A stretch of DNA of 64,000 nt, taken from positions 105,810 to 169,809 of the forward strand of contig JAPLXP010000003.1 in assembly GCA_026396015.1 (NCBI GenBank), given 5' to 3'. The stretch is from Candidatus Nomurabacteria bacterium. GTDB lineage: Bacteria > Patescibacteriota > Minisyncoccia > Phycocordibacterales > UBA9973. Shown in pieces: positions 3,633-60,288 of this stretch (its first letter is position 1; every line of letters begins with the position of its first letter). Made by a program: the position numbers and the translations under genes. The notes beneath the pieces are model-generated. The model was not told where the DNA came from. It did no database searches and saw only the letters and a list, made by a program, of their open reading frames with translations.

Positions 3633-3649
3633 AAATGAATTGTATCATA

Positions 3650-3686
3650 AAAATAGCCCCGACCTTTGGTCGGGGCTATTTTTATT
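3650..3686. terminator. rho-independent terminator hairpin (agccccgacc tttg gtcggggct) + T tract
   Basis: Perfect GC-rich stem seen directly. It lies downstream of the minus-strand receiver/small-ORF pair. Confidence 0.55.
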
Positions 3687-5834: not shown

Positions 5835-5921
5835 CGGAGCCGGACGGATTCGAACCGTCGAGGGCTTTTACACCCTGCCTCTTTAGCAAAGAGGTACGTT
5901 AGACCACTCTGACACGGCTCC
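5835..5921 (-). tRNA. tRNA-Ser (anticodon GCU), type II with long variable arm
   Basis: Minus strand GGAGCCG...CCTCT-TTGCTAA-AGAGG...GACGG-TTCGAAT-CCGTC-CGGCTCC-G. It has a 7-bp acceptor stem, canonical T loop and discriminator G. Confidence 0.85.
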
Positions 5922-7970: not shown

Positions 7971-8055
7971 GGAGGCGTGGATGAGTGGTTTAAATCAACG
8001 GTTTACTAAACCGTCGTCTGTTACAGGACCGTGAGTTCGAATCTCACCGCCTCCG
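7971..8055 (+). tRNA. type II tRNA with Ser-type identity (long variable arm, discriminator G). The apparent anticodon ACU is unusual
   Basis: Acceptor GGAGGCG/CGCCTCC, T arm GTGAG-TTCGAAT-CTCAC, anticodon stem-loop ACGGT-TTACTAA-ACCGT giving positions 34-36 = ACT. Confidence 0.6.
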
Positions 8056-20133: not shown

Positions 20134-20535
20134 ATGAAATTAAATTATAAAAAAGGTTTTACATTGATCGAATTGTTGGTTGTTATCGCAATCATTGGTA
20201 TTCTTGCTTCTGTTGTTATGACATCATTGTCATCTGCAAAGACAAAGGCAAATAGAGCATCAGCTCTATCAAGTGCTGCTGGGGTAATGCCAGCAATCGT
20301 TTCATGTGCAGATAATTCAACAGCTACTGTTAATGCACCAACAAATACTTCAATTGGTGGTGGAAGTATTTGTAGTGATTCTTCTAATGTTAATTCAACA
20401 TGGCCAAGTTTAGGTTCAACAGGATATACATATTCTGTTACAAACTTCACTGCTACAACTGGTTCAACATTTAGTGTTAACTCAGCTACTGGTGCAAATA
20501 TAACTTGTAATTCTATAACTGGCTCTTGTCTATAG
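20134..20535 (+). CDS. type IV pilin, candidate major pilin (prepilin leader MKLNYKKG|FTLIELLVV); ORF-track start 20041 is an upstream in-frame extension
   Basis: Class III signal peptide with G at -1 and E at +5, hydrophobic alpha1, Ser/Thr-rich C-terminal domain. Confidence 0.8.
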   Translation: MKLNYKKGFTLIELLVVIAIIGILASVVMTSLSSAKTKANRASALSSAAGVMPAIVSCADNSTATVNAPTNTSIGGGSICSDSSNVNSTWPSLGSTGYTYSVTNFTATTGSTFSVNSATGANITCNSITGSCL

Positions 20536-23998: not shown

Positions 23999-24511
23999 TT
24001 GTTTTTGTATTATAATAAAAAAGGTTTTACATTACTAGAGTTGCTTGTTGTCATTGCGGTTATTGGTATTTTGGCTGCTGTAATAATGGTAAGCGTTTCT
24101 AGTTCTAAAACTAAAGCACAAGTGGCAAATATAAAACAGCAATTTGATAGTATGCGATCACAATCAGATGTATATTATGCAAATAATAATGATTACGGAA
24201 CAGGGTATGCTTATTCTTCTCGTGGGGATAAGTCTGGTACTGGATCTGAAATTTGGGTAAATGATAATTGTGTTACAGATAGTGGTACTGGTATTTTTAG
24301 GCGCTCAACAACTGGTCTTGGTAATCTCATAAACGGTATTTGTAAATCTGGTGCGTCTAGTATTATCGTTGCTGTTGATACTGACCCTGCCACAAAGTGG
24401 GCTATTAAAGTAACTGGTCCGGGTTCAAATTATTTTTGTGAAGATAGCTCTGGTGTTTTGTATTTTCGTACAACTTCTGCTTATAATGTTCTTAATGGCG
24501 TTTGCTCGTAA
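23999..24511 (+). CDS. type IV pilin 2 (prepilin leader ...NKKG|FTLLELLVV); apparent TTG start
   Basis: Class III signal peptide and hydrophobic alpha1, about 150-aa globular domain. Confidence 0.7.
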   Translation: MFLYYNKKGFTLLELLVVIAVIGILAAVIMVSVSSSKTKAQVANIKQQFDSMRSQSDVYYANNNDYGTGYAYSSRGDKSGTGSEIWVNDNCVTDSGTGIFRRSTTGLGNLINGICKSGASSIIVAVDTDPATKWAIKVTGPGSNYFCEDSSGVLYFRTTSAYNVLNGVCS

Positions 24512-25366: not shown

Positions 25367-26704
25367 ATGATGAATCTTAATAATAAACAAAAGAATAGGG
25401 GAATGACTCTCGTTGAATTGATGGTCGTTCTTGCTATCATGTCTATTATTTCTGCTATTGTTGTTACTAATTATTCAGGATATAAATCTAGTAATTCCAT
25501 CAAGATAACTGCAGACGACATAGCTCTCTCTGTTCGACAAGCTCAGGCTTTTGCTATTGGTGTCAGGTCTACCTCTTCTGATGTCTTTCCTGGGTATGGT
25601 ATTCATTTTGATACGTTTGATAGTGGTTCTGTCGTGAATGTTGAAGTTTTACCAGAATGCTCTGATCACAAGGACAATGATGCAGATATGTATTTTGATA
25701 TAGGTGATCCTTCTTGTCATTCAGATTTTGATACATCAAATGCGTCCAGTTATAATCCAGATTTTAATGATGAGTCTCGTAAATCTCAATGTTCTGATGG
25801 ACTTGATAATGATGGAGATGGGTCTGTGGATATTGACGATCCGCAGTGTCATACAGACAGTGACTCTTCTAATTTTGGCTCTTATAATCCATTGTGGGAC
25901 AACGAATCTTCTCGATCTACACTGGGTACTTTTTTGTGCTCAAATGGTATAGACGATGATTCAGATGGACAGATTGATTACAATGATCCTGATTGTCATA
26001 TTGATAAAAATAATCAAAATATAAATAGTTACAACAAGACTATAAATAGTGAAGGTAATTCTACTCTGAATACTGGCTCTGGTGATGCTGGTGGAGGTGG
26101 TGTTGTTGATCCAAATATTGGTCCAGCTGCTTTTTTATTTAATAACTTGAGTAAAAAAATTGCTCAAAATATTTCTAGTGAATTAAATAATTTTTTAAAG
26201 AATACGACTCCTAGTGTTTTTGCTGATGGTGTTCTCGGTAGTATCTCGGGGAATAGTAATTCCTTTATTTTGTTTGCAGATATTCCTTGTGGTATTGGAG
26301 ATCAAAAAGGTAATAATCAGTATGATTATCCAAATACAAGTTCACCCACACCTTGTGGTGGATCTAGTGCCAGTACAGGTTATGTTTGTGATAGTTCATC
26401 TCTTGTCTCAGGGTATGAGTGTCTGAATATTTTCAATACACCTGGTACAGACAAGATCGTCGGCCTCTGTGTAAATGATGAATGCGAGAATTCCATGTTG
26501 GGTAGCAAGGGTACATTGGATATTGTATTCAACAGACCCAATCCAGATGCTAATTTTTGTTTCAGAATTTTAGGGTCTCTTTCTAGTGGTTGCAGTAATA
26601 ATTCTGCCGAGATATCCCATGCTGGTATTATTGTTCAATCAAGTATAGATGAGAGGACAAAAAAGGTGATCATTTATAGCACAGGTCAGATCAGTGTAGA
26701 ATAA
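25367..26704 (+). CDS. large pilin-like protein (prepilin leader NRG|MTLVELMVV) with three tandem Cys-bounded Asp-rich metal-binding repeats; candidate tip/minor pilin adhesin
   Basis: Class III signal. Repeats C.D..DND.DG..D..DP.CH.D.D.SN..SYNP x3 (aa 98-224). Confidence 0.65.
   Translation: MMNLNNKQKNRGMTLVELMVVLAIMSIISAIVVTNYSGYKSSNSIKITADDIALSVRQAQAFAIGVRSTSSDVFPGYGIHFDTFDSGSVVNVEVLPECSDHKDNDADMYFDIGDPSCHSDFDTSNASSYNPDFNDESRKSQCSDGLDNDGDGSVDIDDPQCHTDSDSSNFGSYNPLWDNESSRSTLGTFLCSNGIDDDSDGQIDYNDPDCHIDKNNQNINSYNKTINSEGNSTLNTGSGDAGGGGVVDPNIGPAAFLFNNLSKKIAQNISSELNNFLKNTTPSVFADGVLGSISGNSNSFILFADIPCGIGDQKGNNQYDYPNTSSPTPCGGSSASTGYVCDSSSLVSGYECLNIFNTPGTDKIVGLCVNDECENSMLGSKGTLDIVFNRPNPDANFCFRILGSLSSGCSNNSAEISHAGIIVQSSIDERTKKVIIYSTGQISVE
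25658..26040 (+). repeat. three tandem coding repeats (about 40 codons each) encoding DxDNDxDGxxDxxDPxCH motifs (MopE/thrombospondin-type-3-like Ca/metal-binding)
   Basis: ECSDHKDNDADMYFDIGDPSCHSD / QCSDGLDNDGDGSVDIDDPQCHTD / LCSNGIDDDSDGQIDYNDPDCHID read directly from the translation. Confidence 0.6.
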
Positions 26705-39179: not shown

Positions 39180-39185
39180 ATAAAA

Positions 39186-39220
39186 TAAAAACCATCACGA
39201 ATGTGATGGTTTTTATTTTG
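39186..39220. terminator. bidirectional terminator ccatcac-gaa-tgtgatgg + T tracts
   Basis: Between pyrG (+) and the LOG-family gene (-). Confidence 0.6.
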
Positions 39221-40044: not shown

Positions 40045-40115
40045 TGCTAGATCGTCTAATGGTAGGACAACGGTTTCTGGTACCGTTTATCTAGGTTCGA
40101 GTCCTAGTCTAGCAA
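40045..40115 (+). tRNA. tRNA-Gln (CUG)
   Basis: U1-A72 acceptor TGCTAGA/TCTAGCA as in bacterial tRNA-Gln, anticodon stem-loop ACGGT-TTCTGGT-ACCGT, T arm CTAGG-TTCGAGT-CCTAG. Confidence 0.7.
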
Positions 40116-40601: not shown

Positions 40602-41069
40602 ATGGTGGATATTATAATTCGCAAATTAAAAAATACTGATATTGATATAATTTCTTTTTTGGTTAATAAATTTAGCCATGAATGGATAATTCCAGAAAAA
40701 GAAATTAAAGAAGAATTTGTCGATGCTTCTTTTTTGGGAAGTTTTCCTTATATTTTTATTGCTGTAGCTGAAAATGGTGAATTTGTGGGTGATATTATTT
40801 TGTCTATAGAGAAGGACTGGTTTTTAGGTATTGATAATGAGGTTTGGATTAGTGGGGTTTTTGTTGTGGAAAAGTATCGTAACCAGGGTATAGCAAGAAA
40901 GCTCATTTCTCAGGCTGAATCTGTAGTGCTTGAATGTGGATATAAAAATTTATATTTAGATACGATACATGCATCTGGGTATTATCAAAAAATCGGTGGA
41001 TGGGTGGAAATAGGAAAAGATACATGGAAAGATGAAGAAGTTATTATAATGAAAAAAGAGCTTTTATAA
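40602..41069 (+). CDS. GNAT family N-acetyltransferase (ORF-track TTG start 40563; likely ATG 40602)
   Basis: Motif A VVEKYRNQGIARKLI. Confidence 0.65.
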   Translation: MVDIIIRKLKNTDIDIISFLVNKFSHEWIIPEKEIKEEFVDASFLGSFPYIFIAVAENGEFVGDIILSIEKDWFLGIDNEVWISGVFVVEKYRNQGIARKLISQAESVVLECGYKNLYLDTIHASGYYQKIGGWVEIGKDTWKDEEVIIMKKELL

Positions 41070-43663: not shown

Positions 43664-45595
43664 TTATTTTTCAATTCCGCGAATGAGTACTTTTAATAAT
43701 GATTCCAATCCCATAGTGGCCACTCCTGTGACTTTATCACCTCCTCCATAATACAAGTAGAGTATTCCTTTATCTTCCACTACACCACAAGGGAATACTA
43801 CATTGTTAACGATACCATTTTTTTCATAATCCATTTCTGGTTCGAATATTGGGTCAGTGGTACGAGCTAAAACTAGAGCTGGATCTTTTTTATCAAGGAG
43901 TACTGCTCCTACTCTGTATGTACTGTGACTCTTGGATACTCCGTGGTATATTAGCAGCCATCCGTATTTTGTGTTGATTGGAGGTGATGCTATCCCTACT
44001 TTTAATCCATCCCATTTATTTTGTCTTGGGCCAAATATTTGAATACACTTGTTAACTTTTTCTTTTTCAAAATTCAGACTGTGTAGATAGTCCCCGCAAA
44101 CTTGATTACCCACACGATGAATGACTAGATATCCGTCCTTGAATTTTTCAGGGAATATACATGCATCCTTGTCATCAAATCCACTAGGTGTAATCAGTGA
44201 TGGTTTGTCCCATTTCCAATTGTGCGCAAGAAAATTTTTTTCAGTAATTGATGTTATTGCTACACGAGGTACATTGATACTGTCATATGCTGTATAGCAC
44301 ATGTAAATATTTTTACCGATTTGTGTCACTCTTGGATCTTCACAACCAGAATTTCCATTTGTTATTTTTTTGCTCTCAAAATCCTCACGTGGAAGATATA
44401 TTGGCTCAGGTGACCTGTAATCAATTTTTACTCCATTTTTTGTACTTGCATATCCTATATATGATGTATTGTCATTTGAAAATGATCTGTACATTATGTG
44501 TGTAGTTCCGCCTATTCTAATAGCAGCAGGATTGAATGTCGCCTTGGATTCCCATAGATGATCCTCGATGGGGGAGATTATTGGATTTTCCTTCCATCTT
44601 TTAAATGTATATACTCCTGCAGTTTCAGGTCTGATTGTGTTGATCAAATCTGTAATATTTACTTTTGCCTTACACACAGTAGTATCTGCTGCGCCGTAGT
44701 AAATACTTAGGACATCACCCTCGAGTAGTGCACCACTAGGGAATACTATATTACCAATATGACCGGTGAGTTCATAGACTTCACTCGGTACTAGTATAGG
44801 ACCTTTTGTCCTTCCGATTATTTTTCTTGGATCTTTTAGATCGAGTAGTAATACTTCGACTCCGAAAATACGATCTAAGTGTTCATTGCTCTCAAAATAA
44901 TTTTGAATATGAGAATAAATTAAAAGCCATCCGTACTTTGTTTTTATTGGAGTAGCACCTATCTCTACGTGGTCACTCTTTGTCCTACGTGGGTCTATTG
45001 TGTGTTCGTCTATTTCTGCATACCACTTTTCCCAAAATTCAGGATTCCAAAAATCTTCAACATTTTTGGATTGTGCGATGGCTATCTGTGAAGGTGGTAG
45101 GTCTGTGTGTACTGTCAGTATCAGTGTTGCTTTTCCATTTATGCGCTCCGGAAAAAGAGTAGCTGCTTTAGCGTTAAAAGGTGTCACTAGATGGCGCTCA
45201 GTTACATTTTTTAAATCCTTAGATATTCCTACTGCTACTTTAATATTCTCGTGTGAAAAAGGGAAGCCGCCCAATGCAGTATAAAAAGTATAATATTTAC
45301 CTTCAAATTTTGTCACGCGTGGATCTTCACACCCGTATTTTTCCCAATCCTCTACAGGAACGATGAATTGCTCATGCTCCTCAAAGTGAGTACCATCCTT
45401 GCCGCGCCCGATACCTACCACAGAAGTTTGTTCTGGGTTACGCATTTTGTCTACCGCAGAAATCGCTCGATATATACCATAATAATTTTTACCTTCTTTG
45501 ATAGGAGATAAATTAAATACAGCACCAGCTTCCCAGTAGTGATCTTTGTTTGGGACAAGTATTGGATTATGTGAAGATCTTTTTACGACGTACAT
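43664..45595 (-). CDS. tandem two-domain GH130/DUF377-like glycoside phosphorylase (beta-mannoside phosphorylase family)
   Basis: Two repeats of the NPIL...W(E)..(A)(T)FNP(A/S)... 5-bladed propeller pattern. 643 aa. Confidence 0.55.
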   Translation of the reverse strand: MYVVKRSSHNPILVPNKDHYWEAGAVFNLSPIKEGKNYYGIYRAISAVDKMRNPEQTSVVGIGRGKDGTHFEEHEQFIVPVEDWEKYGCEDPRVTKFEGKYYTFYTALGGFPFSHENIKVAVGISKDLKNVTERHLVTPFNAKAATLFPERINGKATLILTVHTDLPPSQIAIAQSKNVEDFWNPEFWEKWYAEIDEHTIDPRRTKSDHVEIGATPIKTKYGWLLIYSHIQNYFESNEHLDRIFGVEVLLLDLKDPRKIIGRTKGPILVPSEVYELTGHIGNIVFPSGALLEGDVLSIYYGAADTTVCKAKVNITDLINTIRPETAGVYTFKRWKENPIISPIEDHLWESKATFNPAAIRIGGTTHIMYRSFSNDNTSYIGYASTKNGVKIDYRSPEPIYLPREDFESKKITNGNSGCEDPRVTQIGKNIYMCYTAYDSINVPRVAITSITEKNFLAHNWKWDKPSLITPSGFDDKDACIFPEKFKDGYLVIHRVGNQVCGDYLHSLNFEKEKVNKCIQIFGPRQNKWDGLKVGIASPPINTKYGWLLIYHGVSKSHSTYRVGAVLLDKKDPALVLARTTDPIFEPEMDYEKNGIVNNVVFPCGVVEDKGILYLYYGGGDKVTGVATMGLESLLKVLIRGIEK

Positions 45596-45598
45596 ATA

Positions 45599-46759
45599 TT
45601 ATTTTTTTGTTTTAATTTTAGTTGTTAATTTTAATGCTTTATCGTGCATTAATTCCTCTAGGAATAAATCAAGATTTGCTTTTGCTACACATGTGACCAT
45701 ATCTCCGCCGCCATAATATATGAATAATTCTTTATCTTTCACCACTGCACCACATGAGTATACTATTCCTGGCTTACCTTCATTCTCGTAATGTTCTTCT
45801 GGTTCTAGTATTGGATCTTTGGATTTGTGGAGTATCAAAGTGGGATCTTTTTTGTCGAGCAGCATGGCATGGAGATTGTATTTAGATGAATCCTTTTGAT
45901 TGTTCGTATGATAGATCACTAGCCATCCGTACTTTGTCTTGATAGGGGCGGGGCCTATGCCTCGCATATTTCTATCTCGCATTTTCCATAGTGGGTGATC
46001 CTGGTGAATGCTATGGATAAAAGTCTTACCATTGAATTCATTCAAATTGTCACTATAGTAGATCATAATCTCTGGAGATATTGCATGGATAATTGCATAC
46101 TTACCATTTATTTTCTCTGGGAAAAGAACCCAATTTTTCTGTACTTCACCTGGCATAGATATCAATACAGGCTCTTTCCAATTAAAATTTTTATTCACAA
46201 AATCTTTAACTTTTATATGCGTCATTCCAATACGAACAGAACCCCATCCATCAAATGCTGTATACATCATATAGATGTTGTCTTCTATGAGGGTCATTCT
46301 TGGGTCCTCGCATCCACCATCTCCACCACCACCAGAAATATAGTCTAATTTTTTTAGACTTTTATTCTTGTTTGTGGAGTGTTTGTATATGGGCATCGAT
46401 AATCGCTCAGTGATATGCAATCCATCTTTTGTTTTTGCATAACCCAATACTGAAGTATCACCGATTCCTATCGCACGATATACTATATGTATATGTCCAT
46501 CATGGTAAATTGCACTTGGATTGAATGTGGCTCCAGATTCCCAATTGGGATAATGACTAGGTTTTAATATTGGATTATTATAGGATCTTTTTAACGTAAT
46601 TTTTTTTGCTATCTGTATTTTATCATTTTTGGTTGCGGATGACTTTTTAATCACTTTTAATTTGCCCACAGTTTTTTTCTTTGGTGTTTTTTTAATCTTT
46701 GATATGGTCTTCAATTTTTTGATGATTGGAGCTTTTGTTTTTTTAATTTTCTCTACCAT
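45599..46759 (-). CDS. GH130/DUF377-like glycoside phosphorylase with Lys-rich N-terminal tail
   Basis: RSYNNPILKPSHYPNWESGATFNPSAIYHDGHIHIVYRAIG. N-terminal about 55 aa KKTK...KKK low complexity. Confidence 0.55.
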   Translation of the reverse strand: MVEKIKKTKAPIIKKLKTISKIKKTPKKKTVGKLKVIKKSSATKNDKIQIAKKITLKRSYNNPILKPSHYPNWESGATFNPSAIYHDGHIHIVYRAIGIGDTSVLGYAKTKDGLHITERLSMPIYKHSTNKNKSLKKLDYISGGGGDGGCEDPRMTLIEDNIYMMYTAFDGWGSVRIGMTHIKVKDFVNKNFNWKEPVLISMPGEVQKNWVLFPEKINGKYAIIHAISPEIMIYYSDNLNEFNGKTFIHSIHQDHPLWKMRDRNMRGIGPAPIKTKYGWLVIYHTNNQKDSSKYNLHAMLLDKKDPTLILHKSKDPILEPEEHYENEGKPGIVYSCGAVVKDKELFIYYGGGDMVTCVAKANLDLFLEELMHDKALKLTTKIKTKK

Positions 46760-50962: not shown

Positions 50963-52678
50963 ATGCAATCATTCTTTAGCTATATAAAAGAAAATAAAAT
51001 TAAGTCAGCTATCGTGATTATAATTGTGCTGGCAGTAGGTTATTATCTGTATAAATTATTATTTCCAACACCAATAATTACTCGATATGTATTAGGAAAT
51101 GTTCAAAAATCAACCGTTATATCTACAGTATCTGGCACAGGTCAGATCTCCTCTGGTGCCTCAATAGATGTGAAGCCAAAAGTATCAGGAGATATTTTGT
51201 CTGTGAACGTTAAAAATGGTCAGTATGTTTCTGCGGGCCAATCTATCGTAGTACTTGATAATACAAGTGCACTTAAAAATGTGAGAGATGCGCAGATCCG
51301 TCTGGATCAAGCAAAATTGGCATTGCAGAGAATGAAGGGTGGTGCTGTTGATACTGGTGAAGTGCGCAGCACAACGCAAAAAGCAAGTGATGCATTATTG
51401 AAATCTTATGATGATGGATTCAATACTGTAGCTAGTACATTTATAGATTTACCTGCAGCTATGACAGGATTGCATGATGTTCTTCTTAATTCTGACTTTG
51501 GTATGGGTCAGCAGCCTAATATAGCTTTTTATTTTGATCAATTAAAAGTTTCAAATTCAGAAAATGCTGATAAGGCAAAACTTTTTAGTGATGATGCAAA
51601 TAAAAAATACACTGAAGCACGTGCAATGTACGACCGAGTATTTTTAGAATATAAAAATACAAATAGAAATTCTTCAAATTCAGACGTAGAAAGATTGATT
51701 AATGATACTTATGATACAGACAAAGCAATAGCTGAAGCAATTAAAAGTTCTCAGAATTTAATACGTTTGTATCAAGATACTTTTACTTTGGCAAATATGA
51801 AAATTGAATCAAAGTCTAATACTCATCTGACAAGCTTAAATACATATACTGGTATGACCAATGGTCATCTAGTAGATCTACTTGCTGCTAAAGATAATAT
51901 TTTATCCAACAAAGAATCTATAGTTACTTCTTCTTTTGATCTTACTGATCAAGAGATATCAATCAAACAAGCAGAAAATGCATTACAGGACGCTAGAGAT
52001 ACTCTTGCGAACTATGTAATTCGTGCCCCTATCGATGGTATCGTTGGGAAGCTTTCAGCCGTTCGTGGTGATACAGCTAGTAGTACATCTCTCGCAACTA
52101 TTATCACAACAAAGAAAATCGCGCAGATATCTTTAAATGAAGTTGATGTGGCAAAAATTAAAGTTGGTGACAAGGTCACTCTTACTTTTGATGCGATACC
52201 AGATTTGACTGTAGTAGGATTGATATCTGATATTGATAGTATTGGTACTGTGTCTTCGGGTGTTGTAAATTATAATATAAAAATTAGTTTTGATTCATCA
52301 AACGATAGTATCAAGGAGGGGATGAGTGTTTCTGCTGCGATTATTACAAAAATTGCTGCTGACGTAGTTGTAGTTCCTAACAGTGCATTGAAAACAAAAA
52401 ATGGTAATTCTTTTGTTGAGGTATTTGATGTAGCTCCAGCTGCTACTACAGATGGATTGCAAGGTGCACCCTCTGCTATCGCACCAAAGCAAGTAGGTGT
52501 GGAAATTGGAATTTCTGATGATACAAATACTGAGGTAATTTCAGGATTAAAAGTTGGGGATAACATTGTCACAAAGACAATCACCACAACAACTGTATCT
52601 ACGGCAAATACGGCACCAAGTCTTTTGGGTGCTGTCGGTGGAAATAAATCAGGTGCTCGAGCAATGACAGGTAGATAA
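50963..52678 (+). CDS. efflux periplasmic adaptor (HlyD/MacA-type membrane fusion protein)
   Basis: N-terminal TM, long coiled-coil region, lipoyl/beta-barrel-like segments (VKPKVSGDILSVNVKNGQYVSAGQSIVVLD...IRAPIDGIVGKL). Confidence 0.65.
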   Translation: MQSFFSYIKENKIKSAIVIIIVLAVGYYLYKLLFPTPIITRYVLGNVQKSTVISTVSGTGQISSGASIDVKPKVSGDILSVNVKNGQYVSAGQSIVVLDNTSALKNVRDAQIRLDQAKLALQRMKGGAVDTGEVRSTTQKASDALLKSYDDGFNTVASTFIDLPAAMTGLHDVLLNSDFGMGQQPNIAFYFDQLKVSNSENADKAKLFSDDANKKYTEARAMYDRVFLEYKNTNRNSSNSDVERLINDTYDTDKAIAEAIKSSQNLIRLYQDTFTLANMKIESKSNTHLTSLNTYTGMTNGHLVDLLAAKDNILSNKESIVTSSFDLTDQEISIKQAENALQDARDTLANYVIRAPIDGIVGKLSAVRGDTASSTSLATIITTKKIAQISLNEVDVAKIKVGDKVTLTFDAIPDLTVVGLISDIDSIGTVSSGVVNYNIKISFDSSNDSIKEGMSVSAAIITKIAADVVVVPNSALKTKNGNSFVEVFDVAPAATTDGLQGAPSAIAPKQVGVEIGISDDTNTEVISGLKVGDNIVTKTITTTTVSTANTAPSLLGAVGGNKSGARAMTGR

Positions 52679-52682
52679 AATT

Positions 52683-53363
52683 ATGATTGAAATTAAAAAT
52701 ATTACAAAAAAATATCAAAGTGGTAAGGAGCCATTCCTGGCTTTAAAAGGTGTCAGTTTTATTATTGAGGATGGGGAGTTTGTCGCTATAACTGGTCCAT
52801 CTGGGTCTGGTAAGTCCACTTTGATGCATATTCTCGGTGCACTCGATAATCCTACTTCCGGTACATATTTTTTGGATGGAAAGGATGTGTCTACTCTGTC
52901 TGATGACGAATTGGCAAATATAAGAAAAAATAAAATTGGTTTTGTCTTTCAATCTTTCAATCTACTTCCTCGTACTACAGTAATAAGAAATGTATCGTTG
53001 CCTCTTGTGTACGCTGGTGTAGAAGAAAAAGAAAGAATTCGAAGAGCTGAAGAAGCTTTAATCTCTGCTGGTCTTGATCGCGAGCACTTCACTCATTTAT
53101 CAAATGAATTATCTGGTGGGCAAATACAACGCGTAGCTATCGCTCGTGCACTCGTGAACAATCCTACATTGATACTAGCTGATGAGCCTACCGGTAATCT
53201 TGATTCAAAAACGGGGGATATAGTATTGGGAACTTTTCAAAGATTGAATCGTGAACATGGTCGTACTATTATACTCATCACACACGAGCCAGATGTAGCA
53301 GCACATGCTGACCGCATTATTCACATAAAAGACGGATTGGTTCTAAGTGATAAGAAAAAATAA
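52683..53363 (+). CDS. ABC transporter ATP-binding protein (MacB/LolD type)
   Basis: Walker [11 protein letters not shown]-loop, signature LSGGQIQR, Walker [13 protein letters not shown]-loop. Confidence 0.85.
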
Positions 53364-53382
53364 TGTGCTTCATAAATTATAT

Positions 53383-53451
53383 TCTTTTCTCAGGTCCTCG
53401 GATCTCCTCGCAAATGCAAAATTCGCTCGGCCAGACCGTTCGAAAAGAAAA
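53383..53451 (-). repeat. second copy (inverted) of the GC-rich palindromic element found inside ligA. It sits in the spacer between the ABC ATPase and permease genes
   Basis: aggtcctcggatctcc (53392-53407) and cgctcggccagaccgt (53424-53439) are exact reverse complements of 29704-29718 and 29681-29696. Flanking inverted repeat ttcttttc...gaaaagaa. Confidence 0.6.
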
Positions 53452-53475
53452 TAATTTATTACGCAAAGAGTAATT

Positions 53476-54699
53476 ATGAAAACAAAAGATATTTTAGAAG
53501 AGACATGGATAGCATTATCGAGCAACAAAGTTCGATCTGGTTTGACTATGCTCGGTATAGTGATCGGTATTGCATCAGTGATCGCAATGACTGCTATTGG
53601 TCAAGGTGCTCAGTCATCAATACAGTCATCTATTCAATCTATAGGATCAAATCTAGTTCTAGTTACTCCTGGAGCTCAGAGGGGTCCCGGTATGCAAATT
53701 TCTGGGGGGCGTGGTTCTGCTAAAAGTCTGACAATTGAAGATTCAGATGCTATTGTCTCTGGTGTGTCCGGAGTCAAATCTGTAGCACCAGAGGTATCTA
53801 GTAGATATCAGGTTACAGCACGAGGCACAAATACCAATACGACTGTATCAGGGGTGAATTCAAGTTATTCTGATGTCCGAAATGTCACCGTTGATAATGG
53901 TAATTTTATTACCGATCAAAATGTAGACAGTGGTGCAAAAGTTGCTGTACTCGGGCCGTCTGCCCGTGACGATCTATTTGGTGTAGATGGTGATGCGATA
54001 GGTCAGACTATAAAGATAAAACAAATTAATTTTAAAGTTGTAGGTATTACTCATAGTAAAGGTGGCTCAGGGTTCCAAAATCCAGATGATATGATTTTTA
54101 TTCCTATCACTACTGCCCAAAGATTTCTCTCTGGAGATCAATATGTGTCCACAATATCTGTCGGAGCACTAGATGCAAGTACCACCACCCAAGTCCAAGC
54201 TGATGTCACTGCATTATTACTTTCCCGCCATCACATATCAAACCCCGCATCAGCTGATTTTTCAACTTTGAATCAAGCAGATATTATCGCTACAGCCTCA
54301 TCTGTGACAGGTACATTTACAATATTGCTTGCAGCTGTCGCTGGTATATCATTGATTGTTGGTGGTATCGGTATTATGAATATGATGCTCACTACGGTCA
54401 CAGAACGCACTCGTGAGATTGGATTACGCAAAGCTATCGGTGCGCAACGTAAAGATATAAATCGTCAGTTTTTAATCGAAGCCATTATGCTCACATTTAT
54501 TGGAGGAGTTATAGGTGTGGCACTCGGGTGGGGTGTATCCTTGCTCGTGTCAAAATTAGGTATTCTTCAAACAAGTGTATCTATTTCTTCTGTTCTCCTT
54601 TCATTTGGAGTCTCTGCCGCTATTGGAATTATCTTTGGATATTACCCAGCAAAAAAAGCTGCCAAGTTAAATCCAATCGAAGCCTTGAGATATGAATAA
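53476..54699 (+). CDS. ABC transporter permease (MacB/FtsX-like, 4 TM with large extracytoplasmic domain)
   Basis: MacB_PCD-like periplasmic domain then FtsX-type TM bundle (LLAAVAGISLIVGGIGIMNMMLTTVTERTREIGLRKAIGA). Confidence 0.8.
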   Translation: MKTKDILEETWIALSSNKVRSGLTMLGIVIGIASVIAMTAIGQGAQSSIQSSIQSIGSNLVLVTPGAQRGPGMQISGGRGSAKSLTIEDSDAIVSGVSGVKSVAPEVSSRYQVTARGTNTNTTVSGVNSSYSDVRNVTVDNGNFITDQNVDSGAKVAVLGPSARDDLFGVDGDAIGQTIKIKQINFKVVGITHSKGGSGFQNPDDMIFIPITTAQRFLSGDQYVSTISVGALDASTTTQVQADVTALLLSRHHISNPASADFSTLNQADIIATASSVTGTFTILLAAVAGISLIVGGIGIMNMMLTTVTERTREIGLRKAIGAQRKDINRQFLIEAIMLTFIGGVIGVALGWGVSLLVSKLGILQTSVSISSVLLSFGVSAAIGIIFGYYPAKKAAKLNPIEALRYE

Positions 54700-56218: not shown

Positions 56219-56590
56219 ATGGTATTTCAATCAAAACACATAAAAGGTATTGGTCGCGGAAAGAATTTAGGATTTCCTACAATCAATTTAACAATCCCAG
56301 AAGAACTACTTCTTGATGATGGCATCTATGCTGCATGGATAGACATCGGAGGTAGGACATATAAAGGTGCACTTCATTTTGGTCCAGTGCCGACATTCAA
56401 TGAGCGTGAATCACAGCTCGAAGTACATCTGATAGATGTTACAGATGATAATTTTCCAAATACGGTGGACGTAGACATAGAAGTGGATGTAGTAGAAAAA
56501 ATTCGCGAGGTGCAGAGATTTGACGAGACAGTAGACCTGATCGAACAAATCGCTCGTGATGTAGAAAAAGTACAAAAGATTTTAAAATAA
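56219..56590 (+). CDS. monofunctional riboflavin kinase
   Basis: GIGRGKNLGFPTINL matches the riboflavin-kinase G.GRG..LGFPTAN motif. 123 aa. Confidence 0.65.
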   Translation: MVFQSKHIKGIGRGKNLGFPTINLTIPEELLLDDGIYAAWIDIGGRTYKGALHFGPVPTFNERESQLEVHLIDVTDDNFPNTVDVDIEVDVVEKIREVQRFDETVDLIEQIARDVEKVQKILK

Positions 56591-56591
56591 A

Positions 56592-56632
56592 AAATACCCC
56601 GCGCCTGTGGCGCGGGGTATTTTTTATTCTGT
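56592..56632. terminator. bidirectional terminator ccccgcgcc-tgt-ggcgcgggg + T tract
   Basis: 9-bp GC stem read directly. Confidence 0.7.
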
Positions 56633-59446: not shown

Positions 59447-59776
59447 ATGGTAGAACTCAAAGATTTACAAAAGGAGGTAATGCGAAATAAGGTAGAAAAA
59501 GGTTTTAATACCACAGATATGGCTCTGGACTTTTGTCGAGCGCACGAGGAACTTTCAGAGGCATTTTCTAAATTTAATAAAAATCAAGAAGGTGTCGCCG
59601 AAGAACTAGCAGACGTAATGATTTTTATTCTGGGTATGTGCGAAAATCTTGGATATGACCTAGAGGCAGAACTAGTGAGAAAAATTGAAATAAACAAAAA
59701 TAGAAAATACATAAAAACTAAATCACCAGACGGTAAGGATATATTTATCAGAGAAAAGACAGATATCGATCCATAA
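59447..59776 (+). CDS. MazG-like nucleoside triphosphate pyrophosphohydrolase (all-alpha NTP-PPase)
   Basis: EELSEAFS...ELADVMIFIL motif pair. 109 aa. Confidence 0.55.
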   Translation: MVELKDLQKEVMRNKVEKGFNTTDMALDFCRAHEELSEAFSKFNKNQEGVAEELADVMIFILGMCENLGYDLEAELVRKIEINKNRKYIKTKSPDGKDIFIREKTDIDP

Positions 59777-59782
59777 GAAATA

Positions 59783-59816
59783 AAAACACCCCGACAATTG
59801 TCGGGGTGTTTTTATT
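59783..59816. terminator. bidirectional terminator caccccgaca-att-gtcggggtg + T tract
   Basis: Read directly. Confidence 0.7.
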
Positions 59817-60288
59817 TCTTTTTGTAAACGGAAAATCTGTATGGTGGGTCATTTTCAAAATGTTCTTCACTTGATATCCCCCCCCATTCAGTACTCTTTA
59901 TTTCAGGAAAAAAAGTATCAGCATCAAATTCTTTTTCAACATGAGTCACATACAATTTATCTGCAAAGGGTAGAGTTTGTTTGTATACCTCACCTCCACC
60001 GATTATGAATACTTCATCTTCATACTTACATGCATCCAATGCTTTGATTAATGAATTCACGACTTCAGTACCTTCGTGTGTATATGATGCATCACGAGTG
60101 ATTATTATGTTGCGGCGATTAGGAAGTGGACGACCTATCGATTCAAAAGTCTTGCGACCCATGATTATAGTATGACCAGAAGTTATTTCTTTAAAATGCT
60201 TAAGGTCATCTGGTATATTCCATAGTAAGGTATTGTCTTTTCCTATAGCATTATTTTTTGATATGGCTACGATTATTGATGTGATCAT
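59812..60288 (-). CDS. folA: dihydrofolate reductase
   Basis: IVAISKNNAIGKDNTLLWNIPDDLKHF, GRKTFESIG, 158 aa. Confidence 0.8.
   Translation of the reverse strand: MITSIIVAISKNNAIGKDNTLLWNIPDDLKHFKEITSGHTIIMGRKTFESIGRPLPNRRNIIITRDASYTHEGTEVVNSLIKALDACKYEDEVFIIGGGEVYKQTLPFADKLYVTHVEKEFDADTFFPEIKSTEWGGISSEEHFENDPPYRFSVYKKK

What the first reader, a model, noticed from the sequence alone, without database searches (positions are those of the whole stretch)
53380..53455. Second copy of the GC-rich repeat, inverted, in the macB-like ATPase/permease spacer
The 112-bp spacer between the ABC ATPase (52683..53363) and its permease (53476..54699) contains aggtcctcggatctcc and cgctcggccagaccgt. These are exact reverse complements of the 15-mer and 16-mer in the ligA insert, in the same relative order, and they are flanked by their own A/T-rich inverted repeat (ttcttttc ... 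gaaaagaa). Two exact matches longer than 15 nt with conserved arrangement cannot be chance in 64 kb. This defines a small dispersed repeat family, MITE/REP-like, that stands out as GC islands in an AT-rich genome. In an operon spacer it could act as an mRNA hairpin that stabilises the message or sets differential expression.
Basis: seen in the sequence. Interest (0 to 1): 0.6.

Follow-up and report, generated by a model that had tools for sequence, protein, structure and literature searches.

The report
Hairpin insertion element of ultrasmall bacteria
The GC-rich block between the two transporter genes is one copy of a roughly 100-base hairpin-forming DNA insertion found in many Paceibacteria (candidate phyla radiation) genomes, usually sitting in frame inside DNA-repair and tRNA-enzyme genes, much as the palindromic elements of Rickettsia do.

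Summary
Both 16-mers occur exactly twice in the window, once in each orientation, and none is expected by chance.

The block at 53367-53464 is a ~98-nt insertion into an ATPase-permease junction that is only -4 to 35 nt long in most homologous MacB-type operons. It belongs to a family with 62 more exact-core copies in 44 Patescibacteria (mostly Paceibacteria) assemblies. I found no match in Rfam or in viral contigs, and no paper in the searched library describing it.

From base to tip the element has:
- a basal motif, cTTC / T(T/A)Cg;
- an AT-rich stem of about 20 bp, different in every copy but strictly Watson-Crick complementary;
- an invariant asymmetric core, A-GGTCCTCGGATCTCC...CTCGGCCAGACC-RT;
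- a variable apical hairpin.

About 80% of copies lie inside ORFs. They occur in both orientations and all frames, and the host frame is always open. Seventeen of 20 host genes encode nucleic-acid enzymes such as LigA, PolA, UvrA/C/D, RecG/J, PheT, TruB, Tgt and MnmA.

Pairing shows no wobble excess, so it is maintained at the DNA level. Elements flip in place between related species, and occupied and empty sites alternate among close relatives.

My best reading is a non-autonomous, RPE/MITE-like selfish hairpin element. Its mobilising enzyme is unidentified. A regulatory role in the mRNA is not supported.

The parts
53367..53464 (+). Copy B, the whole hairpin element inserted in the ATPase-permease spacer (the finding)
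   Evidence: Covariance-model hit at 53369-53461, 79 bits, E=7e-20. RNA and DNA folds give one long hairpin. Most homologous operons examined have spacers of -4 to 35 nt; one has 70 nt holding a different palindrome.
53367..53371 (+). Left basal motif gcTTC. The gc pairs with the gc at 53463-53464; TTC faces TAC in a 3x3 internal loop.
   Evidence: The motif recurs at the stem base of most copies. A permutation test shows it is not a target-site duplication.
53372..53392 (+). 5' arm of the outer stem (ATAAATTATATTCTTTTCTCA), ending in the invariant A
   Evidence: Inverted repeat I3. Stem columns covary across 63 copies.
53393..53411 (+). Core box 1, GGTCCTCGGATCTCCTCGC
   Evidence: Exact match in both window copies. 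Columns are invariant or nearly so in alignment A2.
53412..53424 (+). Variable apical hairpin (AAATGCAAAATTC). The same apical variant occurs in a ligA copy (L062) and a pheT copy (L048).
53425..53437 (+). Core box 2, GCTCGGCCAGACC. It pairs with box 1 as GGTC:GACC, GG:CC, CC:GG and GC:GC.
   Evidence: The GGTC:GACC helix is compensated in diverged copies (GTTC:GAAC in L020, AGTC:GACT in L053).
53438..53459 (+). Bulged purine (G53438), then the 3' arm of the outer stem (TTCGAAAAGAAAATAATTTAT)
   Evidence: An R followed by an invariant T comes after GACC in all 63 copies.
53460..53464 (+). Right basal motif TACgc
52683..53363 (+). ABC transporter ATPase upstream of copy B
   Evidence: PF00005, E=1e-33.
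53476..54699 (+). MacB-type permease downstream of copy B. Its AAAGAG ribosome-binding site at 53466-53471 lies just outside the hairpin.
   Evidence: PF12704 MacB_PCD and PF02687 FtsX; sequence read.
29647..29745 (-). Copy A, the same element antisense to ligA. It is read through in frame in the Zn-finger loop as ...GLAERAREGDPRT...
   Evidence: Covariance-model hit at 29653-29740, 61 bits.. Close LigA homologues such as P0002 lack the insert.
28396..30564 (+). ligA, the host gene of copy A (722 aa, against 661-671 aa for homologues without an insert)
29754..29825 (+). A second, different hairpin element next to copy A in the same ligA loop. Its arms are GCAAAATAGTAAAAATTTTT / AAAAATTTTTACAATTCTGC and its 32-nt GC-rich centre is CCGCCTTACCTCTCTCGGGCTCCGACGCCGAT. 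Its left end (cTTCGCAAAA) resembles that of copy A.
   Evidence: Inverted repeat I8; DNA fold z=-3.6. The same unit is in L063. Its peptide (FS..L.GSDADKNF-like) recurs in LigA and UvrC homologues.

Best explanation
Copy B is one member of a family of non-autonomous, hairpin-forming DNA insertion elements, 80-105 bp long, found in Patescibacteria of the Paceibacteria/Nomurabacteria group. They behave like Rickettsia palindromic elements.

Shown:
- The element was inserted into a normally very short ATPase-permease junction.
- Its sister copy sits in frame in the LigA zinc-finger loop.
- The family has an invariant asymmetric GC-rich core on top of an AT-rich stem of about 20 bp. The stem differs in every copy but stays Watson-Crick paired, and it ends in a basal cTTC/T(T/A)Cg motif.
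- The core has no stop codon in any of the six frames.
- Copies inside genes are always open in the host frame, so they are evidently translated as extra loop residues.
- Elements are present, absent or inverted at the same site in closely related genomes.

Inferred:
- The stem is kept complementary at the DNA level, by palindrome-templated correction (arm-to-arm template switching or conversion) rather than by selection on an RNA.
- The conserved core and basal motif, about two helical turns apart, are the recognition and cutting or nicking sites of an unidentified trans-acting enzyme that copies, moves or flips the element.
- In the macB-like operon the element has no designed function. At most it places a stable hairpin in the polycistronic mRNA.
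For: Family and spread. 62 exact-core copies occur in 44 species-representative assemblies, all Patescibacteria except one probably mis-binned 3.4-kb contig.

Insertion. Most homologous operons examined have spacers of -4 to 35 nt. LigA homologues fall into two length classes, 661-671 aa and 690-739 aa, and all the extra residues lie in the Zn-finger loop.

Structure. 22 of the 23 variable outer-stem pairs show changes on both sides. 80% of cells are paired, against 59% after shuffling and 32-48% when partners are slid.

DNA level rather than RNA:
- G:T mismatches are 10% of mismatches (12% expected) and A:C 22% (18% expected).
- Both orientations occur in genes and in spacers.

Translation. 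50 of 50 genic copies are open in the host frame, while only 43-54% of the other frames are open. The core is stop-free in all six frames.

Mobility or turnover:
- The LigA tree is ((window, empty L061), (L062 sense, L063 antisense)).
- Whole elements are inverted at orthologous sites: mnmA in L044/L051, a spacer in L009/L043, and ligA.
- One genome holds two near-identical intergenic copies.
- In UvrC, the same variant sits at both hot spots within a genome but differs between genomes.
- Apical variants are shared between copies whose arms are unrelated.
- The ligA insert is 88/94/88% identical at codon positions 1/2/3, against 87/93/62% for the gene as a whole.

Not a known RNA family and not a terminator.
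Against: - No transposase or other mobilising gene was identified.
- There is no target-site duplication.
- The arms are not conserved between copies as the terminal inverted repeats of a MITE should be.
- Inner-arm similarity of the ligA copies tracks LigA divergence (r=0.72), and the core starts exactly 66 nt after the CPVC cysteine codon in every filled allele. This also fits one ancient insertion kept under strong nucleotide-level constraint, which a purely selfish element does not explain.
- 17 of 20 host genes encode nucleic-acid enzymes. Random insertion does not predict this.
- The copies were found by requiring an exact 24-nt core, so the apparent invariance of the core is partly an ascertainment effect. 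LigA and UvrC peptides show many diverged cores.
Confidence: 0.6

Rival explanations
1. The element is a host-level DNA signal. The invariant core would be a binding site for a conserved protein, for example a DNA-uptake signal recognised by the competence pilus machinery, or the operator of a regulon of DNA-repair and tRNA genes. The insert alleles would then spread between related lineages by transformation and recombination.
For: - The core is identical across 44 species, while ligA four-fold sites are only about 50% identical between the relatives compared.
- It occurs in either orientation.
- 17 of 20 host genes are genome-maintenance or tRNA enzymes. From memory, uptake sequences in Neisseria show a similar bias towards genome-maintenance genes.
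- It occupies the same site in orthologues, and insert states are incongruent with the host-gene tree.
- A type IV pilus/competence gene cluster lies next to ligA.
Against: - Density is only 2 copies per 64 kb, far below the roughly one per kb of known uptake sequences.
- A signal of 35-60 nt with a 20-bp hairpin and a basal motif is much more elaborate than a 9-12-nt uptake sequence.
- Intergenic copies flank metabolic genes such as GAPDH, SOD, ATP synthase and aldehyde dehydrogenase, so no regulon is apparent.
- A block of this size cannot arise by point mutation, so an insertion mechanism is still required.
Confidence: 0.12
2. The element is a cis-acting RNA hairpin in the mRNA. It would stabilise the message, act as an RNase III or RNase E processing site, or tune expression of the ATPase relative to the permease.
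For: - Both strands fold into a long hairpin with z-scores of -3.4 to -4.3.
- The element sits in a transcribed operon spacer, as do five other intergenic copies.
- There is an orientation bias, 34 sense to 16 antisense (p=0.015).
- By analogy (from my own knowledge, not tested or cited here), ERIC and REP elements can affect mRNA decay.
Against: - One third of genic copies, and some spacer copies, are antisense to the transcript.
- There is no excess of wobble pairs on either strand.
- No match to any Rfam family.
- No U-tract and no terminator-like site.
- The ribosome-binding site of the permease is not sequestered.
- Most copies lie inside coding sequence, where a 20-bp stem with a GC-rich core would hinder rather than help.
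Confidence: 0.1
3. The whole element is not mobile. A few ancient palindromic insertions persist vertically. Only the core and apical module is exchanged between copies by ectopic gene conversion or template switching, and the stems grow and drift locally by quasipalindrome correction.
For: - The histories of the apical variant and the arms are decoupled.
- The position of the core in ligA is constant.
- Inner-arm similarity correlates with host divergence.
- Remnants of arms without a core occur in UvrC, and a half element lies upstream of the ligA copy in L031/L058.
- In several loci the hairpin extends outward into locus-specific sequence.
Against: - It does not explain how about 27 different sites acquired a palindrome in the first place.
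- It does not explain why several unrelated core families share the same hot spots and similar ends.
- It does not explain the empty alleles nested among filled ones.
- Concerted evolution within a genome cannot keep the core identical across 44 species.
Confidence: 0.15
4. The repeat is an assembly or chimeric-contig artefact, or an adapter-like contaminant.
For: None found.
Against: - The core sits in 44 assemblies from unrelated projects, each copy with unique, locus-specific arms, in frame within intact conserved genes.
- Orthologous copies co-diverge with their hosts.
Confidence: 0.01

Closest known systems
Rickettsia palindromic elements (RPE; Ogata et al. 2000 and 2002, as summarised in PMC10969869)
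   Same: Both are short palindromic repeats of about 100-150 bp with no coding capacity of their own. Both are inserted many times in frame into unrelated housekeeping genes of a reduced genome and are translated as extra surface loops. Both also occur in intergenic DNA, and for both the mobilising enzyme is unknown.
   Different: - The host phylum is different (Patescibacteria) and no sequence relationship to RPEs was seen.
- Here the conserved part is an asymmetric GC-rich centre, and the arms differ in every copy while staying complementary.
- All six frames are used, rather than one conserved peptide.
- Elements are found flipped at orthologous sites.
- Host genes are strongly biased towards nucleic-acid enzymes.
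MITEs (for example Correia, RUP and Nezha elements)
   Same: Small size, many copies, terminal inverted repeats within each copy, no ORF, and presence/absence polymorphism between relatives.
   Different: - No target-site duplication.
- The arms are not conserved between copies, apart from a weak end consensus (TTC-GCAGAAAA).
- No parent IS element is known.
- The core is conserved across many species.
ERIC/IRU and REP/BIME elements of enterobacteria
   Same: Imperfect palindromes in transcribed operon spacers, in either orientation. ERIC elements also have a conserved central region and are conserved across species.
   Different: ERIC and REP elements are essentially extragenic. REP elements are 20-40 nt long, carry a GTAG motif and are associated with RAYT transposases. 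None of these features holds here.
Inteins and homing introns (an analogy of distribution only)
   Same: Sporadic occupancy of the same conserved sites in replication, repair and tRNA-related genes. The element is more conserved than the synonymous sites of its host. Insert states are incongruent with the host phylogeny.
   Different: There is no protein-splicing or ribozyme capacity and no encoded endonuclease. Both orientations and all frames occur, and the element is read through rather than removed.
Hairpin origins and termini processed by HUH nickases (IS200/IS605 ends, and parvovirus ITRs with their flip/flop forms)
   Same: A hairpin with a conserved recognition block and a conserved motif about 20 bp away at the stem base. 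The asymmetric centre exists in two orientations relative to the flanks.
   Different: This is purely a structural resemblance. No HUH gene, nick site or single-stranded intermediate has been shown, and IS200/IS605 elements carry two different end hairpins.

Membership tests
MITE | Short, non-coding and multi-copy | tested here: met
   80-105 bp, with no ORF of its own. 2 copies in the window and 62 more in 44 assemblies.
MITE | Terminal inverted repeats conserved between copies and shared with a parent IS | tested here: inconclusive
   Each copy has complementary arms, but the arm sequence differs between copies. Only a weak end consensus, TTC-GCAGAAAA, is visible. No parent IS was looked for.
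MITE | Target-site duplication | tested here: not met
   Left and right flank motifs match within a copy no better than between copies (p=0.26 and 0.54).
Rickettsia palindromic elements | Palindromic repeat inserted in frame in ORFs and compatible with translation | tested here: met
   50 of 63 copies lie in ORFs of at least 180 aa, and all are open in the host frame. The core has no stop codon in any of six frames.
Rickettsia palindromic elements | Sequence membership in RPE-1 to RPE-10, and occurrence in Rickettsia | not tested
   No RPE sequences were available for comparison. The hosts are Patescibacteria. I therefore treat the element as working like an RPE, not as a member of that family.
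REP/BIME | Extragenic location, a 20-40-nt palindrome with a 5' GTAG motif, and association with a RAYT gene | tested here: not met
   About 80% of copies are intragenic. The element is about 100 nt long, and alignment A2 shows no GTAG motif. RAYT genes were not searched for.
Intrinsic terminator | GC-rich hairpin followed by a T-run | tested here: not met
   No terminator-like site in 52600-53800 on either strand. The 3' arm is A-rich.
Any curated RNA family (Rfam 15) | Covariance-model score at or above the family's gathering threshold | tested here: not met
   Only tRNAs pass in the window. The best hits on either copy score no more than 17 bits, with E of 0.4 or higher.
Integron attC site | R''/R' boxes (RYYYAAC...GTTRRRY) at the hairpin base, and a cassette context | tested here: not met
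   The basal motif is cTTC/T(T/A)Cg. Copies lie inside genes or in operon spacers, not at cassette ends.
DNA uptake sequence (DUS/USS type) | Very high genomic density (about one per kb) of a short 9-12-nt motif | tested here: not met
   2 copies in 64 kb. The conserved block is at least 35 nt long and carries a hairpin.
IS200/IS605-derived palindrome-associated element | Two subterminal hairpins recognised by a Y1 HUH TnpA, with strand-specific insertion 3' of a tetra- or pentanucleotide | not testable with these tools
   Only a single hairpin is seen. No tnpA search across the host genomes was possible.

The most novel reading that the evidence does not exclude
The element is not simply junk. 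Its invariant core and its basal motif, two helical turns apart, would form the substrate of a conserved, still unknown Patescibacteria enzyme, either an HUH-type nickase or recombinase or a DNA-uptake receptor. That enzyme would flip, copy or preferentially transmit the hairpin. The result would be a homing-like drive that places hairpins, together with a whole set of sister families sharing the same ends and hot spots, specifically in replication, repair and tRNA-enzyme genes across the Paceibacteria.
Probability: 0.15. Interest if true: 0.85.

Novelty: new variant of a known kind. Interest (0 to 1): 0.62.

Why it matters
[quoted passage not shown] Here the same phenomenon appears in a second, unrelated lineage with a reduced genome, and on a large scale.

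- Many LigA and UvrC proteins of the Paceibacteria carry one or more hairpin-derived loops. These come from several element families and sit at fixed hot spots.
- This affects gene calling, domain annotation and phylogenetic markers for candidate phyla radiation genomes. For example, the LigA zinc-finger Pfam hit (PF03119) is absent from most filled alleles.
- It gives a tractable case of palindrome evolution by DNA-templated correction.
- It poses two concrete puzzles. What keeps a 35-nt core identical across dozens of species? Why are the hosts almost exclusively nucleic-acid enzymes?

Tried and rejected
- Rfam search at gathering thresholds over the whole window, and permissive searches on both copies, found nothing beyond tRNAs.
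- The viral-contig scan for the core gave 0 hits.
- An exact look-up of the window's ATPase in public assemblies found it not on record.
- No locus from the genome scan held an orthologous MacB operon, so I spent the single metagenome scan on the ATPase instead. The closest relatives are only 71-72% identical, too distant to define the insertion boundaries nucleotide by nucleotide.
- Splicing or translational bypass. I considered this because GC-rich inserts in AT-rich genes recall the mitochondrial "byp" elements. I rejected it because all 50 genic copies keep the host frame open, while only about half of the other frames are open.
- Target-site duplication of TTC or CTTCG: rejected by permutation.
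- The idea that the core inserts into pre-existing palindromes, with one arm derived from the target. Insert length against empty loops in LigA and UvrC was suggestive but too imprecise to decide.
- Genes next to intergenic copies were scanned for transposases or nucleases. Only ordinary housekeeping genes turned up.
- Six literature searches. The five that combined a candidate-phyla-radiation term (Patescibacteria, Parcubacteria or similar) with a repeat-element term found no description of such elements. The sixth was an RPE search, which led to the review read.

Full report
**1. The observation**

AGGTCCTCGGATCTCC lies at 53392-53407 (+) and 29701-29716 (-). CGCTCGGCCAGACCGT lies at 53424-53439 (+) and 29675-29690 (-). 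No further match appears with up to 2 mismatches, and shuffles give essentially none.

The boxes lie in the 112-nt spacer between an ABC ATPase (PF00005) and a MacB_PCD/FtsX permease, downstream of a HlyD-type adaptor gene. The flanking A/T-rich inverted repeat is real and extends to 24 nt per arm at 88% complementarity. The ligA copy lies on the opposite strand. It has a shorter inter-box spacer (10 nt against 16 nt) and a completely different pair of complementary arms.

**2. A widespread family**

I scanned one genome per GTDB species with GGTCCTCGGATC-N(5-35)-CTCGGCCAGACC. This returned 60 loci holding 62 copies from 44 assemblies. The record titles name Paceibacterota, Nomurabacteria, Minisyncoccia, Parcubacteria, the "Patescibacteria group" and co-assembly MAGs labelled Saccharibacteria. 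The exception is one 3.4-kb "Bacteroidetes" contig that is nearly identical to a Patescibacteria locus and is probably mis-binned.

The window itself is from a Candidatus Nomurabacteria MAG: its LigA is 100% identical to a protein that the source names that way. Rfam holds nothing similar. The viral collection has no copy. Five literature searches combining candidate-phyla-radiation terms with repeat-element terms found no description.

**3. Anatomy**

Aligning 63 copies (A2) and folding them gives one architecture. Reading the strand that starts GGTCC:
- a basal motif (g)cTTC;
- a 5' arm of about 19-21 nt, or 30-35 nt in one subfamily;
- an invariant A;
- GGTC CTC GG ATCT CC TC GC;
- a variable apical hairpin of 5-35 nt;
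- GC TC GG CC A GACC;
- a bulged purine and an invariant T;
- the 3' arm;
- T(T/A)Cg(c).

The outer stem covaries strongly. 22 of its 23 variable pairs show changes on both sides. 80% of cells are paired, against 59% after shuffling and 32-48% when partners are slid by 1-3 columns. A covariance model built from this alignment (R1) finds only the two true copies in the window; its other hits are plain terminator-like hairpins. It also finds five more diverged copies in 483 kb of related loci. In two of these the GGTC:GACC helix is changed on both sides, to GTTC:GAAC and AGTC:GACT.

**4. Copy B is an insertion**

I examined twelve homologous ATPase-permease operons recovered from metagenomes. 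In nine a downstream permease ORF could be called. Eight of these have spacers of -4 to 35 nt, and one has a 70-nt spacer that holds a different palindrome. The ~98-nt element at 53367-53464 therefore accounts for nearly all of the 112-nt spacer.

Five other intergenic copies likewise fill short spacers between co-directional genes, in either orientation. Examples are rplJ-rplL and a TPP enzyme-aldehyde dehydrogenase pair. There is no terminator-like site, and the AAAGAG ribosome-binding site of the permease lies just outside the hairpin.

**5. Most copies are inside genes and are read through**

- 50 of 63 distinct copies lie in ORFs of at least 180 aa: 34 in the sense orientation and 16 antisense (p=0.015). 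All three frames are used.
- The host frame is open through the element and 22 nt of each arm in 50 of 50 cases. Only 43% of the other same-strand frames and 54% of the opposite-strand frames are open.
- The two boxes have no stop codon in any of six frames.

This rules out removal by splicing or ribosomal bypass. It means the elements are translated as loop insertions, for example ...GPRISS...LGQT..., ...KVLGSP...ARPDH... or ...GLAE...GDPRT....

**6. Host genes**

Pfam annotation identifies the hosts as follows.
- DNA enzymes: LigA (8 loci), PolA (6), DnaE, UvrA, UvrC, UvrD/PcrA, RecG and RecJ.
- tRNA and rRNA enzymes: PheT (6), IleS, ArgS, CCA-adding enzyme, TrmD, TruB (5), Tgt, MnmA and a SpoU methylase.
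- Others: MurI, and two proteins with no Pfam hit.

That makes 17 of 20 host genes nucleic-acid enzymes. Such genes make up roughly 10-20% of coding length in neighbouring loci. The excess has p of about 8e-10 at a 20% expectation, and 3e-4 even at 45%. Intergenic copies show no such bias. I cannot explain this. Possible reasons are tolerance only in weakly expressed multidomain enzymes, a homing-like dependence on conserved flanks as seen for inteins, or some function.

**7. Hot spots and turnover**

*LigA.* Among 120 LigA homologues, lengths fall into two classes, 661-671 aa and 690-739 aa. All the extra residues lie between CPVC...VE.R and SVA(Y/F)YC. Loops carry this element in sense or antisense orientation, variants of it, or other hairpin families. 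The window's own ligA holds a second, different hairpin at 29754-29825.

In all filled alleles with DNA available, the core starts exactly 66 nt after the first Cys codon, whichever way the element points. The exception is L031/L058, where a half-element remnant adds 36 nt.

By protein identity, the LigA tree of four close relatives is ((window, L061), (L062, L063)). Their insert states are antisense plus second hairpin, empty, sense, and antisense plus second hairpin.

Between the window and L063 the 195-nt insert is 88/94/88% identical at codon positions 1/2/3. The gene as a whole is 87/93/62%, and four-fold sites are 55% identical. An A-T to G-C compensatory change is visible in the stem.

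*Other sites.* Whole-element inversions at orthologous sites are also seen in mnmA (L044/L051) and in a spacer (L009/L043). UvrC homologues show two further hot spots with the same mixture of families. The same variant usually sits at both sites within one genome but differs between genomes. Arm-only remnants also occur.

**8. DNA or RNA**

Stem mismatches show no excess of G:T (10% against 12% expected) or of A:C (22% against 18% expected). Wobble pairing is therefore not tolerated preferentially on either strand. Together with the use of both orientations, this places the pairing constraint at the DNA level. From general knowledge, palindrome-templated correction (quasipalindrome template switching, or arm-to-arm conversion) produces exactly this pattern of double changes without G:T intermediates. 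It can also extend a palindrome outward, as seen in the long locus-specific stems.

**9. What moves**

The cTTC / T(T/A)Cg flanks are not a target-site duplication: permutation tests give p=0.26 and 0.54. They are part of the element. They form a 3x3 internal loop closed by 2-4 further base pairs. The second hairpin family in ligA has a similar left end.

Discrete apical variants are shared by copies in different genes and genomes whose arms are unrelated. One example is CCGAATTCTTTTGGAAG. Another is the AAATRCAAAATWCG variant of copy B, which is also found in a ligA copy and a pheT copy. Pairs with apical identity of at least 0.8 have a mean arm identity of 0.39, against a background of 0.34. 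The core-plus-apical module and the arms therefore have partly separate histories.

On the other hand, inner-arm similarity among the ligA copies tracks LigA divergence (r=0.72). Both vertical descent and replacement or conversion must be occurring. I could not identify a mobilising enzyme; the genes next to intergenic copies are ordinary housekeeping genes.

**10. Verdict**

The family is best described as an RPE-like, in-frame-tolerant hairpin insertion element of the Paceibacteria. It is not REP-like, and nothing supports a regulatory role in the macB-like operon.

It resembles RPEs and MITEs in behaviour (PMC10969869). It fails the MITE criteria of target-site duplication and conserved terminal repeats, and I have not shown it to be a sequence member of any described family.

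Three features are unusual and unexplained: an invariant asymmetric core with a basal motif two helical turns away, flipping in place, and hosts that are almost exclusively nucleic-acid enzymes.

One caveat applies. The genome scan required an exact 24-nt core, so it overstates core invariance. The protein-level surveys show many diverged cores.

Noticed in passing
window 29754-29825: A second, unrelated hairpin element lies directly beside copy A in the ligA Zn-finger loop. It has AT-rich 20-nt arms and a 32-nt GC-rich centre, CCGCCTTACCTCTCTCGGGCTCCGACGCCGAT. The same unit is in L063. Its peptide signature (..FS..L.GSDADKNF..) recurs alone in other LigA proteins and at both UvrC hot spots, so it defines a sister family.
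   Followed up: partly
LigA homologues P0001-P0120 and UvrC homologues P0121-P0240: The LigA loop and two UvrC linker sites hold at least 6-8 distinct families of insert peptides. Examples are GLAPLLPRPRTL, KVLGRGRTRGQT, STNISLLGNFSARPSRP, GKGLSSRSEAERGKSLR, NRLSLSARSSLRRAHTYDF and SRPPLIKGG. Several look like further hairpin families or variants of this core. PF03119 (the LigA zinc-finger domain) is absent from the precomputed domain lists of most filled alleles.
   Followed up: partly
L031:7158-7362 and L058 (ligA): A 36-nt remnant resembling the 5' arm of a sense-oriented copy (ccaaagctcctctcgtaa) lies just upstream of the complete antisense copy. This suggests repeated insertion or replacement at the same site.
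   Followed up: no
L016:2250-2460 and L021:6090-6200 (same genome, JAUSIP01): Two intergenic copies share about 135 nt, including an extra outer inverted repeat (aaacgagcggtttgtg...). This is either a larger composite palindrome or a recent duplication within one genome.
   Followed up: partly
window 59775-59820: A perfect 23+23-nt palindrome with no loop at all (AAGAAATAAAAACACCCCGACAA/TTGTCGGGGTGTTTTTATTTCTT). Similar perfect AT-rich/GC-tipped hairpins lie at 56586-56628, 33594-33635, 3647-3685 and 39182-39219. They are probably bidirectional terminators, but they match the stem part of the element model.
   Followed up: no
window 20144-20220, 24012-24088, 25389-25465: Three copies of a sequence that I read as a type IV pilin N-terminal segment (..KGFTLIELLVVIAIIGIL..). 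In the related loci L062 and L063, the cluster upstream of ligA holds pilins, prepilin peptidase, T2SSE and T2SSF. A pilus/competence gene cluster therefore sits next to ligA.
   Followed up: no
window 33066-33805: A cluster of five tRNA genes within 740 nt. Three further tRNAs lie at 5835-5921, 7971-8055 and 40045-40115.
   Followed up: no
L065:2212-2281: In the closest homologous MacB operon, the ATPase-permease spacer is 70 nt long and holds a different palindrome (catgtagca...tgctacatg). This junction may be a recurrent landing site for hairpin elements.
   Followed up: no
window 40681-40749: An imperfect inverted repeat with 23-nt arms (74% complementary) and a 23-nt centre. This is the only other hairpin in the window with a large loop, and I did not examine it.
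   Followed up: no
window 43947-45964: Three tandem paralogous segments about 1 kb apart share a 53-nt block at 70-77% identity. This is probably a small family of tandem genes.
   Followed up: no
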